From the sequence record PV245933.1: a DNA stretch of 39,625 nt. One strand, given 5' to 3'. The notes under the pieces were generated by a model. It searched no databases, was not told the DNA's origin, and worked only from the letters and a program-made list of their open reading frames with translations. This stretch comes from Escherichia phage nasanit. The stretch's first letter is position 1; each line of letters begins with the position of its first letter. Positions 514 through 37,696 of the stretch are shown in pieces. The position numbers and the translations under genes are program-made.

Positions 514-516
514 TGG

Positions 517-560
517 AATAACTCAAGGCCACTACATCTAGTGGTCTTTATGATATTTCA
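517..560 (+). promoter_or_regulatory. Conserved processing hairpin (RNase III site-like, R18.5 position)
   Basis: AACTCAAGGCC...TAGTGGTCTTTATGATATT; member of an 8-copy hairpin family; stem pairs with G-U wobbles at RNA level. Confidence 0.45.
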
Positions 561-611: not shown

Positions 612-1055
612 ATGCTCAAGAATTTAAAGAGCTACGCCATAATCGCTGCGTTTGCCTTGGGTATTACCCTTGCGTATAACCACGGATATGACAAAGCTAA
701 CACTAAATGGGAACAGGAGGTGCACAATGAGTACGTTAAGAAAGTTGAGGCGACTGCGGATAAACAGGCTGCTCTCAATGAAGTCTCACGACAATACCAA
801 GAAGACCTTGCGGCGCTGGAAGGCAGCACTGATAGGGTCATTAATGATTTGCGTAACGATGGTAAGCGGCTGCGTGTCAAACTATCAGCCACCTCACGAG
901 AACTCCAAGCTAACGGTGGATGCCTCGTTGATGGTCGAGCCGAACTTGACGAAGAGTTTAGTAAGCGTCTTATCGGAGTAACTCAAAGAGGGGATGCGTG
1001 GATTAAAGCGCTCCAAAATACAATAACTGAAATACAATCTAAGAAGGAGAAATAA
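612..1055 (+). CDS. 18.5: i-spanin (Rz-like), gp18.5
   Basis: 147-aa ORF, N-terminal TM helix then coiled-coil periplasmic domain; motif WEQEVHNEYVKKVEA typical of T7 gp18.5. Confidence 0.85.
   Translation: MLKNLKSYAIIAAFALGITLAYNHGYDKANTKWEQEVHNEYVKKVEATADKQAALNEVSRQYQEDLAALEGSTDRVINDLRNDGKRLRVKLSATSRELQANGGCLVDGRAELDEEFSKRLIGVTQRGDAWIKALQNTITEIQSKKEK
727..981 (+). CDS. 18.7: o-spanin (Rz1-like lipoprotein), gp18.7, embedded in +1 frame of 18.5
   Basis: 84 aa starting MSTLRKL inside ORF 652-981; lipobox-like VSGC followed by Pro-rich segment; embedded arrangement as in T7. Confidence 0.75.
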   Translation: MSTLRKLRRLRINRLLSMKSHDNTKKTLRRWKAALIGSLMICVTMVSGCVSNYQPPHENSKLTVDASLMVEPNLTKSLVSVLSE

Positions 1056-1056
1056 T

Positions 1057-1614
1057 ATGGCTGCTACAAACTCAAGAACCCGCACACTCTGGACCATCAA
1101 TGGTCGCTCACCAGACAGTCGTGATGTGTATGACCACAACAATATTGGTATTCGCGTTGGGCGTATCGACATCCCAGCTTCGGAGATGGTCAAGGTAGAT
1201 GGCTACTCTAAGGTTGAATACGTTGTTCAACTTAGCGATGGCACCACTGAGCAACATGCTACGTTCGAGACCCTTATGTCCACTTGGGGTGGCTCCGTCG
1301 AGTCTAAGCCGGGAAGCGGGTTCATGACGGTGTTCCTGAATGAGCAAAGCACTGAGCGACTCGGTATGGTTCGAATCGACGTATACAAAGAGTGGACTGG
1401 TGCTGACCCTGAACCTGAAGGTGGCATGGCTTCCTTAGTTAGCGCAACGCTTTCTGCGTCTGATAGTGAATTTGGTACACAGTTCGTGGATAGCGAAGGG
1501 AAGAGCGCTTCCGTTATGTTCCAACCTAGTAACATCGACGGGGCTGTATCTAAGACCGACACTATCAAGGCTCTTGAGAAGCGCATTGATGCCTTAGAGA
1601 AATCTGCCAAGTAA
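1057..1614 (+). CDS. Hypothetical protein, 185 aa, no family recognised
   Basis: Intact ORF; ATG 1 nt after 18.5 stop with AAGGAGA SD; ends 15 nt before gene 19; codon usage like neighbours; no TM segment; amphipathic C-terminus KALEKRIDALEKSAK. Confidence 0.6.
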   Translation: MAATNSRTRTLWTINGRSPDSRDVYDHNNIGIRVGRIDIPASEMVKVDGYSKVEYVVQLSDGTTEQHATFETLMSTWGGSVESKPGSGFMTVFLNEQSTERLGMVRIDVYKEWTGADPEPEGGMASLVSATLSASDSEFGTQFVDSEGKSASVMFQPSNIDGAVSKTDTIKALEKRIDALEKSAK

Positions 1615-1629
1615 CAATAGGAGGCCACA

Positions 1630-3387
1630 ATGTCTACTCAAGCAAACAAGAATGCGCTCATCGTGGCGCAACTTAAGGGTGACTTCGTGGCCTTCCTGTT
1701 CGTCTTATGGAAGGCTCTGAACTTACCTAAACCAACCAAGTGTCAGATTGATATGGCACGTACACTCGCTAATGGCGACCACAAGAAGTTTATCCTACAG
1801 GCGTTCCGTGGTATCGGCAAGTCCTTTATCACCTGTGCGTTCGTCGTGTGGGTCTTATGGCGTGACCCTCAACTTAAGGTGCTCATCGTGTCTGCCTCTA
1901 AGGAACGTGCTGATGCTAACTCCATCTTCATCAAGAACATCATCGACCTCCTTCCGTTCCTCTCTGAGTTGAAACCTCGACCGGGACAGCGAGACTCCGT
2001 GATTAGCTTCGACGTTGGCTTGGCGAAACCAGACCACTCACCCTCTGTGAAGTCTGTAGGCATTACTGGTCAGTTGACTGGTAGCCGTGCTGACATTATC
2101 ATCGCAGATGACGTTGAGGTTCCCGGCAACAGTTCTACAAGCTCTGCTCGTGAGAAGCTGTGGACACTGGTAACTGAGTTTGCTGCGTTACTTAAGCCGT
2201 TACCTACCTCTCGTGTTATCTACCTTGGGACACCTCAAACCGAGATGACTCTCTATAAGGAACTTGAGGATAACAAAGGGTACAGCACGGTAATCTGGCC
2301 AGCACAGTATCCACGTAATGATGCTGAGGCTCTCTACTATGGGGACCGCTTGGCTCCGATGCTTAAGGCTGAATACGATGAGGGCTATGAGTTACTTCGT
2401 GGTCAACCTACTGACCCTGTTCGATTCGATATGGATGACCTCCGTGAACGTGAACTCGAATATGGCAAAGCTGGCTACACTCTTCAGTTCATGCTTAACC
2501 CGAACCTTAGTGATGCCGAGAAGTACCCGCTACGGCTCCGTGACGCTATCGTGTGCGCTGTGGACCCCGAACGTGCCCCATTGTCTTACCAGTGGTTGCC
2601 GAACCGTCAGAACCGCAATGAGGAACTCCCTAACGTTGGTCTTAAGGGTGATGACATCCATGCGTTCCATACGTGCTCTTCTCGTACCGCTGAGTATCAG
2701 TCTAAGATTCTGGTCATTGACCCAAGTGGTCGTGGTAAGGATGAGACCGGGTACGCAGTCCTCTACTCACTTAACGGTTATATCTACTTGATGGAAGTCG
2801 GTGGGTTCCGTGGTGGTTACGATGATGCTACCCTAGAGAAGCTCGCTAAGAAGGCCAAGCAGTGGAAGGTACAGACAGTCGTCCATGAGTCCAACTTCGG
2901 TGACGGTATGTTCGGTAAGATTTTCTCTCCGATTCTCCTGAAGCACCATAAGTGTGCCTTAGAGGAAATCCGTGCTAAGGGCATGAAGGAGATGCGAATC
3001 TGCGATACTATCGAACCGTTGATGGGTGCGCACAAGCTGGTAATTCGTGATGAGGTTATTCGTGAGGACTACCAGACTGCTCGTGACCTTGATGGGAAAC
3101 ATGATGTTCGCTATAGTGCGTTCTATCAGATGACCCGTATGACCCGTGAGCGAGGCGCTGTGGCACACGATGACCGACTTGATGCTATCGCATTGGGTAT
3201 CGAATGGCTACGCGAGGGGATGCTTGTAGACAGCCGTGTAGGTGAAGAAGAGATGACCCTTGAGTTCCTTGAACACCACATGGAGAAACAGACCATTGGT
3301 GGCGACCAGATTCATAGCTATGATGTAGGAGGTGTGGACATCTACTATGAGGACGATGGGGACTCTAGCAGCTTCATTGAGTGGTAA
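1630..3387 (+). CDS. 19: Terminase large subunit (DNA maturation protein B), gp19
   Basis: 585 aa; Walker A-like AFRGIGKSF; strong overall similarity to T7 gp19 (T7 is 586 aa). Confidence 0.95.
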
Positions 3388-3476: not shown

Positions 3477-3499
3477 TAATACGACTCACTATTGGGAAG
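3477..3499 (+). promoter_or_regulatory. Phage RNAP promoter (phiOR position)
   Basis: TAATACGACTCACTATTGGGAAG; matches T7 promoter core except T at -1. Confidence 0.8.
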
Positions 3500-22847: not shown

Positions 22848-23216
22848 ATGGGTTGGGGTAAAAAGATTCGCAAATCAGTTAAGAAGGCTGTCAAGAAAGT
22901 AACCAAGCCTATCGAGAAGGTAGTCAAGGAAACTGGTAAGGCAGTTGAGAAGGTCGGTAAGGAAGCTGGTAAGGTCGTTGGTGGCGTTGCTGGTGCACTT
23001 GCTGGTGGTGGTAAGCCTGATGTACAGGTGGTTGAACAAGCTGCTCCTGTAGCTGCTCCGGCCCCGGCTGCTGCACAGATTATTGAGCCACCGAGTAAAG
23101 ACGATGTGGATACCGATGATGATGCACAGACCGAATCTGGCAAGAAGAAAGCCCGTGCTGGCGGTAAGAAATCTCTGAGTGTCGCTCGCAGTTCTGGCGG
23201 TGGTCTGAATATCTAA
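22848..23216 (+). CDS. 7.3: gp7.3-like virion/tail-associated protein (122 aa)
   Basis: Lys-rich repetitive N-terminus, Ala/Pro-rich middle, basic C-terminus; position between 6.7 and 8. Confidence 0.7.
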   Translation: MGWGKKIRKSVKKAVKKVTKPIEKVVKETGKAVEKVGKEAGKVVGGVAGALAGGGKPDVQVVEQAAPVAAPAPAAAQIIEPPSKDDVDTDDDAQTESGKKKARAGGKKSLSVARSSGGGLNI

Positions 23217-37626: not shown

Positions 37627-37649
37627 ACAATACGACTCACTATTGGGAA
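37627..37649 (+). promoter_or_regulatory. Phage RNAP promoter (phi17 position)
   Basis: CAATACGACTCACTATTGGGAAG followed by 5' hairpin GGGAAGG..CTTCCC. Confidence 0.8.
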
Positions 37650-37696
37650 GGCTCACATAGCTTCCCTCTATTTACCTAACCGAAAGGAGGCTACAG

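What the first reader, a model, noticed from the sequence alone, without database searches (positions are those of the whole stretch)
1057..1614. Unassigned 185-aa late gene inserted between the spanin pair and the large terminase
In the T7/T3 gene order as I know it, gene 18.5/18.7 is followed almost directly by gene 19. Here a 558-bp ORF occupies that junction, tightly coupled on both sides (ATG 1 nt after the 18.5 stop with an AAGGAGA SD; stop 15 nt before the gene 19 ATG). Codon usage matches its neighbours, so it is not a recent foreign insertion. The product has no TM segment, a Gly/Ser/acidic middle and an amphipathic C-terminus (KTDTIKALEKRIDALEKSAK), and I cannot place it in any family. 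Its position implies late co-expression with lysis and packaging genes. Plausible roles are a virion-associated accessory protein, a lysis or packaging modulator, or an anti-defence/exclusion factor.
Basis: partly seen in the sequence, partly recalled or inferred. Interest (0 to 1): 0.7.

Follow-up and report, generated by a model that had tools for sequence, protein, structure and literature searches.

The report
Accessory fibre-like "gene 18.9" protein
This is a real but non-essential late gene of a BA14-type T7-like phage, belonging to an uncharacterised gene family always wedged between the lysis and DNA-packaging genes; its swappable tail-fibre-like parts suggest an extra surface fibre on the virus particle, which nobody has yet tested.

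Summary
Window 1057-1614 (+) is a 185-codon ORF with an AAGGAGA ribosome-binding site. It starts 1 nt after the 18.5 stop and ends 15 nt before gene 19. It has phage-like composition and no membrane segment, and it is under purifying selection (dN/dS 0.12-0.24).

The window is a Berlinvirus genome (BA14/BSP161 group). The ORF is a standard but unnamed gene there ("unknown product", PHROG 20446). Profile comparison links it to "gp18.9" of Erwinia phage L1 and to Ningirsuvirus/Aarhusvirus relatives, always at the same junction.

The family has a conserved N-terminal beta-rich domain of about 120 aa and an exchangeable C-terminal part. In sister alleles that part is built from tail-fibre modules: a knob-like domain, a T7 gp17-shaft-like coiled coil, fibre repeats and a "head fiber" helix-turn-helix.

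The gene is one of the most variable in otherwise 95-100 % identical genomes. It assorts independently of the tail-fibre tip. It is dispensable: absent from phage A7 and internally deleted in phage Carena.

My best reading (about 0.5) is an oligomeric accessory surface fibre or decoration adhesin. Virion association is untested, and the window protein itself has no confident fold match. Interest is moderate.

The parts
1044..1050 (+). Shine-Dalgarno AAGGAGA, 6 nt upstream of the ATG, lying inside the last codons of gene 18.5
   Evidence: Read from the sequence. The same AAGGAGA-N6-ATG arrangement is conserved in BA14, BSP161, 285P, S523, FE44, Yep-phi-type and PYPS50 loci.
1057..1614 (+). Coding sequence of the 185-aa accessory protein, the Berlinvirus allele of the 'gene 18.9' family (stop codon included)
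   Evidence: ORF. PHROG 20446 E 2e-126. Orthologues 91-98 % identical in 16 phage records. dN/dS 0.12-0.24. hhalign to the gp18.9 family gives probability 95.6 %.
1057..1419 (+). Conserved N-terminal beta-rich domain (residues 1-121, ending DPEPE), the family-defining module
   Evidence: Alignments A1/A2. AF2 pLDDT 77-91 with 8 strands and 1 helix. It is the only part shared with PHROG 27102 (residues 4-124) and with gp18.9. dN/dS 0.05-0.15 for most pairs.
1420..1551 (+). Gly/Ser/acidic linker plus a small FG...VDS.G...V.F...ID beta-hairpin module (residues 122-165). This is where sister alleles carry tail-fibre modules.
   Evidence: Low-confidence AF2 region with two short strands. The module is conserved in P0004, P0005, P0021, P0024 and Altay-2017. 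It is replaced by a knob-like domain or a gp17-shaft-like coiled coil in other alleles.
1552..1611 (+). C-terminal amphipathic heptad helix KTDTIKALEKRIDALEKSAK (residues 166-185), a likely oligomerisation element
   Evidence: AF2 helix 168-184. Conserved as I.ALEKRI.ALEK in A1. The unit is duplicated in P0004. Its only PDB resemblances are designed three-stranded coiled coils at non-significant E of about 0.2.
612..1055 (+). Gene 18.5 (Rz-like i-spanin), the upstream neighbour. Its stop codon lies 1 nt before the ATG of the accessory gene.
   Evidence: PHROG 1327 E 6e-61, Pfam Phage_lysis.
727..981 (+). Gene 18.7 (Rz1-like o-spanin) embedded in the +1 frame of 18.5, with lipobox MVSGC
   Evidence: Translation. 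The position matches BA14's annotated 18.7.
1630..3387 (+). Gene 19 (large terminase), the downstream neighbour, 15 nt after the stop
   Evidence: ORF. 94-99 % identical to TerL of BA14, 285P and Yersinia Berlinviruses.
514..560 (+). Stable RNA hairpin between genes 18 and 18.5, at the place of T7's R18.5 RNase III site. It is the likely 5' processing point of the 18.5-X-19 late mRNA.
   Evidence: Fold -17.7 kcal/mol, z -3.6. The identification as an RNase III site is inferred from T7 knowledge and was not tested.
37628..37650 (+). Phage RNA-polymerase promoter phi17, the nearest upstream promoter in this permuted window, driving 17-17.5-18-18.5-X-19
   Evidence: 21/23 match to the consensus built from the promoters annotated in Yepe2. 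There are no promoter matches between here (through the window junction) and phiOR at 3477.

Best explanation
The ORF is a genuine, late-expressed, non-essential accessory gene. It is the BA14-type allele of an uncharacterised family (called gp18.9 in Erwinia phage L1) that occupies the 18.5|19 junction in several genera of T7-like phages.

The product is a soluble, acidic 20-kDa modular protein with three parts:
- a conserved beta-rich N-terminal domain (residues 1-121);
- a short hairpin module;
- a heptad helix at the C-terminus.

I propose that it oligomerises through the C-terminal helix, probably as a trimer. I propose that it joins the assembling virion as a short accessory surface fibre or decoration, on the head, neck or tail. 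In this model the conserved N-domain serves as the common module and the exchangeable C-terminal modules tune reversible binding to host surfaces. The protein would then affect adsorption or host range in nature without being needed for plaque growth in the laboratory.

Shown: gene reality, family membership, fixed position, modular architecture, tail-fibre modules in sister alleles, hypervariability, dispensability and late transcription context.

Inferred: oligomeric state, virion association, which end is the anchor, and the adhesin role.
For: 1. Real gene: native codon usage, and dN/dS 0.12-0.24 for most pairs.

2. Fixed synteny in every context retrieved, directly after Rz and 12-16 nt before TerL:
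- BA14, Altay-2017, vB_YpP_T3, Yepe2;
- metagenomic contigs L011-L015;
- Dagda, pEp_SNUABM_03, L1, Sibilus, JA10, SK1.

3. Family link: hhalign of the X family against the gp18.9 family gives probability 95.6 %, E 1.2e-8. P0027 combines the X N-domain with the gp18.9 C-terminus.

4. Fibre modules in sister alleles:
- The Yep-phi-type middle domain hits tail-fibre PHROG 6578 (E 2e-4 and 1.6e-5).
- It also hits rV5-like and T5-like tail-fibre proteins (27-35 % identity, E 3e-4 to 1e-2) and long 489-2506-aa proteins.
- P0010 carries a T7 gp17-shaft-like segment hitting tail-fibre PHROGs 4242 (5.5e-9), 9502, 8713 and 13980.
- gp18.9 alleles carry YTKAEVDSKV-type repeats.
- The Dagda allele's C-terminal helix-turn-helix hits PHROG 4366 'head fiber protein' at 6.9e-5.

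5. It evolves like host-range genes. The N-domain is 60-64 % identical where TerL, TerS, holin, portal, MCP, gp11 and gp12 are 93-99 %. That is comparable with gp7.3 and the gp17 tip. In the 95-100 % identical pair of Yep-phi type and Yepe2, it is one of only two strongly divergent genes.

6. Late class III context with no internal promoter, a strong SD and no signal peptide or TM. The protein is therefore made in the cytoplasm when virions assemble.

7. Precedent: in the Autographiviridae phage PhiM1, capsid decoration proteins, one with a fibre arm, are experimentally seen on the capsid (PMC11440229). By size they appear to be PhiM1_47/48, encoded next to TerL and the spanin.
Against: - I found no direct evidence of virion association. 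The only virion proteome I could read is from phage A7, which lacks the gene.
- The fibre evidence comes from sister alleles, so for this allele it is an inference from modular homology.
- The N-domain is itself fast-evolving, which is unexpected for an anchor binding a 94-99 % conserved capsid or tail protein.
- It has no Phage_T7_tail attachment domain.
- AF2 models are monomeric and only moderately confident (pLDDT 73-75).
Confidence: 0.5

Rival explanations
1. It is an intracellular arms-race protein: an anti-defence factor, a defence-trigger decoy or a host-takeover factor that acts in the cytoplasm and is never incorporated into the particle.
For: - It is one of the two most divergent genes between otherwise 95-100 % identical phages. 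The other is gp5.5, a host H-NS inhibitor.
- It is dispensable and patchily distributed.
- It sits in an insertion hot spot.
- It has no fold or family assignment.
Against: - It is transcribed only from late class III promoters together with structural, lysis and packaging genes. Known T7-group anti-defence genes are early or middle (general T7 knowledge).
- The swapped-in modules are specifically tail-fibre, knob or head-fibre modules. An intracellular inhibitor has no obvious use for these.
Confidence: 0.17
2. It is a tail-fibre assembly or attachment helper, such as a chaperone or a fibritin-like scaffold for gp17, rather than an adhesin in its own right.
For: It is expressed late on the same transcript as gene 17. 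It is coiled-coil and fibre-like in character.
Against: - Its alleles assort independently of the gp17 tip. PYPS50 has a gp17 C-terminus 91 % identical to the window's but an unrelated Yep-phi-type allele. BA14 has a 55 % gp17 tip but the same allele.
- Yep-phi type and Yepe2 have 96.5 % identical gp17 but unrelated C-terminal halves of this gene.
- Phage A7 and Carena make infectious particles without it.
- T7 and T3 assemble homologous fibres without any such gene.
Confidence: 0.1
3. It is a modulator of lysis (spanin/holin timing) or of DNA packaging (terminase accessory), as its position and translational coupling suggest.
For: The ATG is 1 nt after, or overlapping, the Rz stop. The gene ends 12-16 nt before TerL, and this arrangement is conserved in all loci.
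Against: - It has no TM segment, signal peptide or lipobox, so it cannot reach the periplasmic spanin domains.
- Rz, TerS, TerL and holin are 91-99 % conserved while this gene is swapped, deleted or absent.
- It has no similarity to any lysis or packaging family.
Confidence: 0.07
4. It is a selfish or mobile insertion, or the remnant of one, that persists at a permissive junction without benefit to the phage.
For: The same junction holds HNH or endonuclease VII homing genes in Kayfunavirus, Teetrevirus and Yersinia phages. The gene's presence is patchy.
Against: - It has no nuclease motifs or domains.
- It shows sustained purifying selection.
- It has a conserved family-specific N-domain across at least four genera, always at one site, with a native SD and coupling.
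Confidence: 0.04

Closest known systems
gp18.9 of Erwinia phage vB_EamP-L1 and its homologues in Elunavirus, Ningirsuvirus (JA10, Sibilus), Aarhusvirus (Dagda) and pEp_SNUABM phages (PHROG 5004)
   Same: - Identical genomic slot between 18.5/18.7 and 19, with an overlapping or adjacent start and a short spacer to TerL.
- Similar size (about 200-226 aa).
- Homologous N-terminal region (hhalign 95.6 %).
- P0027 is a natural chimera of the two families.
- Also uncharacterised.
   Different: Only the first ~63 residues or so align. gp18.9 alleles have YTKxEVD fibre repeats and a C-terminal helix-turn-helix ending VMKS. The window allele has instead a hairpin module plus an ALEKRIxALEK helix.
Phage tail fibres and receptor-binding proteins (T7 gp17, R2 pyocin fibre PA0620, rV5-like lateral fibres, phi812/K RBPs)
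   Same: - Conserved N-terminal module with exchangeable distal modules.
- It evolves as fast as gp17 tips and gp7.3.
   Different: - It is much smaller (185 aa).
- It has no Phage_T7_tail attachment domain.
- It is dispensable, whereas gp17 is essential.
Fibre-bearing capsid decoration proteins (PhiM1 alpha-paw/alpha-claw, phi29 gp8.5 head fibre, T4 Hoc, T5 pb10)
   Same: - Small, non-essential, late accessory proteins made of an anchor plus an outward fibre or adhesin.
- The PhiM1 genes that fit these proteins by size (62 and 179 aa) lie next to TerL and the spanin.
- The Dagda allele's C-terminus hits PHROG 4366 'head fiber protein'.
   Different: - There is no sequence or fold homology between the window protein and any of these.
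- The PhiM1 proteins are dimers anchored by an N-terminal helix-turn-helix (PMC11440229).
- Capsid binding of the 18.9 family has never been shown.
Homing endonuclease insertions at the 18.5|19 junction (pO91, STP-SP6, mtp14, fPS-52)
   Same: They occupy exactly the same intergenic slot, with the same tight coupling.
   Different: Those are HNH or endonuclease VII proteins. The window protein has no nuclease motif and no similarity to them (scores).

Membership tests
Gene 18.9 / PHROG 20446-27102-5004 positional family of Studiervirinae | Encoded directly after the Rz-like i-spanin gene and immediately before the large terminase gene | tested here: met
   Window coordinates. The same slot is used in all 20+ loci examined.
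Gene 18.9 / PHROG 20446-27102-5004 positional family of Studiervirinae | Conserved N-terminal domain of about 120 aa (KT.W...R..DS..v.D..g.G...GrIDIp...GY.KVEY...DPEPE) | tested here: met
   PHROG 20446 E 2e-126, PHROG 27102 E 1e-46 over residues 4-124. Alignments A1/A2. hhalign to the gp18.9 alignment gives 95.6 %, E 1.2e-8.
Phage tail fibre / receptor-binding protein | Detectable homology to known fibre or RBP modules | tested here: inconclusive
Phage tail fibre / receptor-binding protein | T7-type N-terminal tail-attachment domain (Pfam PF03906 Phage_T7_tail) | tested here: not met
   No Pfam hit at E up to 1. BLASTP against the phage's own gp17 found nothing.
Phage tail fibre / receptor-binding protein | Trimeric assembly and presence in the virion | not testable with these tools
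   Only monomer AF2 was available. No accessible proteome or cryo-EM exists for a phage carrying the gene.
Capsid decoration / head-fibre proteins (PhiM1 alpha-claw type; PHROG 4366) | Helix-turn-helix 'claw' or PHROG 4366-type C-terminal motif | tested here: not met
   The window protein has a single short C-terminal helix and no PHROG 4366 hit. Only the Dagda allele hits PHROG 4366, at 6.9e-5. PhiM1_47/48 fall in other PHROGs.
Capsid decoration / head-fibre proteins (PhiM1 alpha-claw type; PHROG 4366) | Binding to the mature capsid lattice | not testable with these tools
   Requires cryo-EM or virion mass spectrometry.
Homing endonuclease (HNH / endonuclease VII) insertions at the 18.5|19 junction | HNH or Endo VII catalytic motif | tested here: not met
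   No Pfam or NCBIfam nuclease hit. The sequence is unlike the pO91, STP-SP6 and mtp14 junction ORFs.
Lysis proteins (spanin / holin / antiholin) | Transmembrane segment, signal peptide or lipobox | tested here: not met
   Maximum 19-aa Kyte-Doolittle hydropathy is 0.47, and there is no Cys lipobox. No lysis PHROG or Pfam hit.

The most novel reading that the evidence does not exclude
T7-like coliphages of the BA14/Berlin group, and Erwinia, Dickeya and Klebsiella relatives, carry a previously unrecognised class of short accessory fibre encoded by 'gene 18.9'. It would use a new N-terminal fold and a cassette-like C-terminus that captures tail-fibre modules. This would give these 'single-RBP' podophages a second, rapidly exchangeable surface-binding specificity. 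It could explain host-range differences between phages with near-identical tail fibres, for example Yep-phi versus Yepe2/Berlin.
Probability: 0.3. Interest if true: 0.65.

Novelty: new variant of a known kind. Interest (0 to 1): 0.45.

Why it matters
Host range of T7-like phages is normally attributed to gp17, with contributions from gp11/12 and gp7.3. If this gene encodes a second, cassette-like surface fibre, it would be:
- a new determinant to consider when engineering or choosing therapeutic and diagnostic phages (Yersinia pestis typing phages, E. coli/Salmonella/Erwinia biocontrol phages);
- a natural, dispensable display site on a T7-type particle;
- a candidate explanation for host-range differences between phages with almost identical tail fibres.

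If instead it acts inside the cell, its hypervariability marks it as an arms-race gene worth screening against defence systems. Either way, the annotation 'hypothetical protein' can be upgraded to a defined family with a defined architecture and clear experiments.

Tried and rejected
- **Sequence family searches.** Pfam, NCBIfam and PDB sequence searches on the window protein and on family profiles found nothing. The A3 profile found only non-significant designed coiled coils.
- **C-terminal 64 residues.** tblastn found them nowhere outside the family.
- **Own tail fibre.** BLASTP against the phage's own gp17 showed no similarity. This rejects a gp17 fragment or duplication.
- **Homing endonuclease idea.** The junction ORFs of pO91, STP-SP6 and mtp14 are HNH or Endo VII and unrelated to this gene.
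- **Link to PhiM1 alpha-claw.** There is no shared PHROG. I kept this as a positional and functional analogy only.
- **Literature.**
  - No virion-proteome or functional statement about this gene appears in the phage A7, Tierpark Yersinia, YepMm, Sextaphag or Y. pestis podophage papers.
  - The Yep-phi proteomics, HRP29 and Erwinia L1 papers are not held.
  - 'gp18.9' returns no paper.
- **Wider locus scan.** The search for related loci with the broad alignment failed for lack of conserved stretches. With A1 it returned only the known isolates.
- **Antisense ORF.** The ORF at 1227-1628 (133 aa) has a poor codon index (0.45-0.57 for reverse frames), so I treat it as spurious.

Full report
**1. 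Observation**

The ORF is exactly as described.
- It runs from ATG 1057 to TAA 1612-1614 and encodes 185 aa.
- AAGGAGA lies at 1044-1050.
- The gene 18.5 stop is at 1053-1055, 1 nt before the ATG.
- The gene 19 ATG is at 1630, 15 nt after the stop.

PHROG and Pfam confirm the neighbours:
- class II holin, 45-251;
- small terminase, 244-513;
- Rz-like i-spanin, 612-1055, with the embedded o-spanin at 727-981 (lipobox MVSGC);
- large terminase, 1630-3387.

The ORF is a real gene rather than a chance frame.
- GC is 0.50 and GC3 0.52. A codon index of 0.66 lies within the range of the phage's other genes (0.57-0.81). The other five frames of the same DNA score 0.42-0.57.
- Pairwise dN/dS among seven BA14-type orthologues is mostly 0.12-0.24. 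The N-terminal 121 codons are more constrained than the rest.
- The product is 20.1 kDa with pI 4.8, and its maximal 19-residue hydropathy is 0.47, so it has no membrane segment.

**2. What the window is, and how common the gene is**

The window is a circularly permuted, complete genome of a Berlinvirus, the BA14 group of T7-like phages. Its closest relative is Salmonella phage BSP161.

The gene is not peculiar to this genome.
- tblastn finds it in 57 phage records.
- Sixteen records carry the same 185-aa type at 91-98 % identity: BSP161, 285P, PZJ0206, FE44, P483, S523, PhiV-1, BA14, ETEP21B and CarlSpitteler.
- The remaining records are mostly Yersinia Berlinviruses that share only residues ~4-121.
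- It is annotated everywhere as 'unknown product' or 'hypothetical protein', for example BA14 AS7_0050 and Yepe2 ASE_0044.
- It matches PHROG 20446 end to end (E 2e-126) and PHROG 27102 over the N-terminal domain only. Both PHROGs have unknown function.
- Pfam, NCBIfam and PDB sequence searches are empty.
- The family is small: 15 clusters among 5.8 billion proteins, and about 20 N-domain-bearing representatives among 1.84 billion.

**3. Fixed position, wider family**

Every genomic context I could retrieve places the gene directly after the Rz-like spanin gene, with the start overlapping or 1 nt after its stop. It ends 12-16 nt before the large terminase gene. This holds for the most distant metagenomic members as well (L011-L015).

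Foldseek against viral models pointed to uncharacterised proteins of Klebsiella phage Sibilus and Dickeya phage Dagda. Both sit at the same junction. They belong to a sister family, PHROG 5004, that also includes:
- Erwinia phage vB_EamP-L1, where the gene is annotated 'gp18.9';
- Pantoea phage SK1;
- Dickeya phage JA10;
- the pEp_SNUABM phages.

Profile-profile comparison of the two families gives 95.6 % probability, E 1.2e-8, over the first ~63 residues. The metagenomic protein P0027 is a natural chimera: it has the N-domain of the window's family and the C-terminus of the gp18.9 family.

The window gene is therefore the Berlinvirus allele of a 'gene 18.9' family. That family spans at least Berlinvirus, Elunavirus, Ningirsuvirus and Aarhusvirus.

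**4. Architecture**

Alignments and AlphaFold models show three parts.

*Part 1, the N-domain.* A conserved beta-rich N-terminal domain covers residues 1-121. It has pLDDT 77-91 and ends in DPEPE.

*Part 2, the variable middle.* In the window type it is a Gly/Ser/acidic linker plus a small FG...VDS.G...V.F..ID hairpin.

*Part 3, the C-terminal element.* Here it is the heptad helix TIKALEKRIDALEK. One relative, P0004, has this unit duplicated.

Sister alleles replace parts 2 and 3 with recognisable tail-fibre modules.
- **Yep-phi type (256 aa).** This allele has a ~100-aa middle domain.
  - It hits tail-fibre PHROG 6578.
  - It hits rV5-like and T5-like tail-fibre proteins by tblastn.
  - It hits long 489-2506-aa proteins in the representative search.
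- **P0010.** It carries a T7 gp17-shaft-like segment that hits tail-fibre PHROG 4242 at 5.5e-9.
- **gp18.9 alleles.**
  - They carry YTKAEVDSKV-type repeats.
  - Their C-terminal helix-turn-helix hits PHROG 4366 'head fiber protein' in Dagda, at 6.9e-5.

**5. Evolutionary behaviour**

Between the window and Yersinia Berlinviruses:
- holin, TerS, TerL, portal, MCP, gp11, gp12 and gp15 are 93-99 % identical;
- the N-domain of this gene is only 60-64 % identical, and the remainder is unrelated;
- only gp7.3 (the host range and adsorption protein), the gp17 tip, the kinase and the ligase are comparably divergent.

Between the Yep-phi type and Yepe2, almost every protein is 95-100 % identical, including the tail fibre at 96.5 %. 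This gene is 70 % identical over 114 residues and then unrelated. That makes it one of only two strongly divergent genes in the pair; the other is gp5.5.

Alleles assort independently of the tail-fibre tip.
- PYPS50 has a gp17 C-terminus 91 % identical to the window's, yet carries the Yep-phi-type allele.
- BA14 has a gp17 tip only 55 % identical, yet carries the same allele as the window.

**6. Dispensability and the nature of the locus**

Shigella phage vB_ShiP-A7, a Berlinvirus, lacks the gene altogether. Its Rz stop abuts the TerL start (citing PMC8427288 table 2). Salmonella phage SPLA4 and Kluyvera phage Kvp1 also show the short junction.

Escherichia phage Carena, a viable isolate, carries an in-frame 330-bp internal deletion. 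It fuses residues 1-42 to the last 33.

Other genera carry HNH or endonuclease VII homing genes in the same slot: pO91, STP-SP6, mtp14 and fPS-52.

The junction is therefore a permissive hot spot, and the gene is an accessory. Purifying selection and the conserved N-domain still argue that it is useful where it is present.

**7. Expression context**

I built a 23-nt promoter consensus from the promoters annotated in Yepe2. In the window, the nearest upstream phage promoter is phi17 at 37628. The next promoter is phiOR at 3477, and none lies between them.

The gene is therefore on the class III late transcript with genes 17, 17.5, 18, 18.5 and 19.

A stable hairpin at 514-560 (-17.7 kcal/mol, z -3.6) lies where T7 has its R18.5 RNase III site. 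Identifying it as such rests on knowledge of T7.

**8. Mechanism**

The most economical reading is a small oligomeric accessory fibre or decoration on the virion surface. The supporting observations are:
- it is made late in the cytoplasm;
- it has one conserved module and cassette-like fibre modules;
- it is hypervariable, like host-range determinants;
- it is non-essential.

A precedent exists in another Autographiviridae phage. Cryo-EM of PhiM1 shows two capsid decoration proteins, one with a fibre arm proposed to mediate adhesion (PMC11440229). By size (62 and 179 aa), these appear to be PhiM1_47 and PhiM1_48, which are encoded right after TerL and next to the spanin. This is an analogy, not homology.

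Several things are not shown:
- virion association;
- oligomeric state, since the C-terminal helix resembles designed three-stranded coils only at non-significant E;
- which end anchors.

The N-domain's own rapid divergence sits awkwardly with an anchor role.

I give this explanation about 0.5. The rivals are:
- an intracellular arms-race protein, about 0.17: favoured by hypervariability, disfavoured by late timing and fibre modules;
- a gp17 assembly helper, about 0.1: disfavoured by independent assortment and dispensability;
- a lysis or packaging modulator, about 0.07: no membrane targeting, and the neighbours are conserved while it is swapped or lost;
- a selfish insertion, about 0.04: no nuclease, and the gene is under purifying selection.

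**9. Novelty and verdict**

The gene is already in the databases as a hypothetical protein, and no paper I could search assigns it a function.

What is new here:
- the family definition and its link to gp18.9;
- the modular architecture with captured tail-fibre modules;
- the hypervariability and dispensability data.

I classify it as a new variant of a known kind, namely phage accessory fibre or decoration proteins. Membership of that kind is inferred, not demonstrated. Interest is moderate at 0.45. The finding is a clear, cheaply testable hypothesis in a model phage group, but not a categorically new system.

Noticed in passing
L019 1013-1240 (Escherichia phage Carena, OR769031.1); corresponds to window 1183-1512: A viable Berlinvirus isolate carries an in-frame 330-bp internal deletion of this gene, giving a 75-aa product (residues 1-42 fused to the last 33). 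The junction lies at a short microhomology (GCTTC...ATG).
   Followed up: yes
18.5|19 junction in L016 (pO91), L017 (STP-SP6), L018 (mtp14); Yersinia phage fPS-52: Other Studiervirinae genera carry HNH or endonuclease VII-type homing endonuclease genes in exactly the same slot between the spanin and TerL. The junction is therefore a general insertion hot spot.
   Followed up: partly
window 514-560: A stable RNA hairpin (-17.7 kcal/mol, z -3.6) lies between genes 18 and 18.5, at the position of T7's R18.5 RNase III processing site.
   Followed up: partly
window 727-981 (+1 frame inside 612-1055): An embedded o-spanin (gene 18.7) with lipobox MVSGC lies wholly within the i-spanin gene, as in T7.
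   Followed up: yes
L026 15149-15469 vs L028 15024-15308 (Yep-phi type vs Yepe2): Apart from the gene under study, the only strongly divergent protein between these 95-100 % identical Yersinia phages is gp5.5, the H-NS inhibitor, at 52 % identity. It is a second arms-race-like hot spot.
   Followed up: no
window 22848-23216 (gp7.3-like, 122 aa): The host-range and adsorption protein gp7.3 is only 49-68 % identical to its counterparts in close relatives, and it is longer (122 aa versus 90-100 aa). It is as divergent as the tail-fibre tip.
   Followed up: no
window 1227-1628 (- strand): A 133-aa antisense ORF (GTG start) overlaps most of the gene. Reverse-frame codon indices are poor (0.45-0.57), so it is probably spurious.
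   Followed up: partly
window 3477, 4367, 10007, 10633, 11157, 12521, 13510, 17307, 22229, 24835, 25829, 30289, 37628: Thirteen T7-type promoter matches (18-22 of 23 positions against the consensus of Yepe2's annotated promoters), all on the + strand. The window is a circular permutation of a complete genome, starting just upstream of the holin gene.
   Followed up: partly
L025 7734-8472 (Pectobacterium phage PhiM1, PhiM1_47 and PhiM1_48): The 62-aa and 179-aa ORFs right after TerL fit by size the published alpha-claw (~6 kDa) and alpha-paw (~17 kDa) capsid decoration proteins. The GenBank record still calls them hypothetical, and the paper uses different gp numbers.
   Followed up: partly
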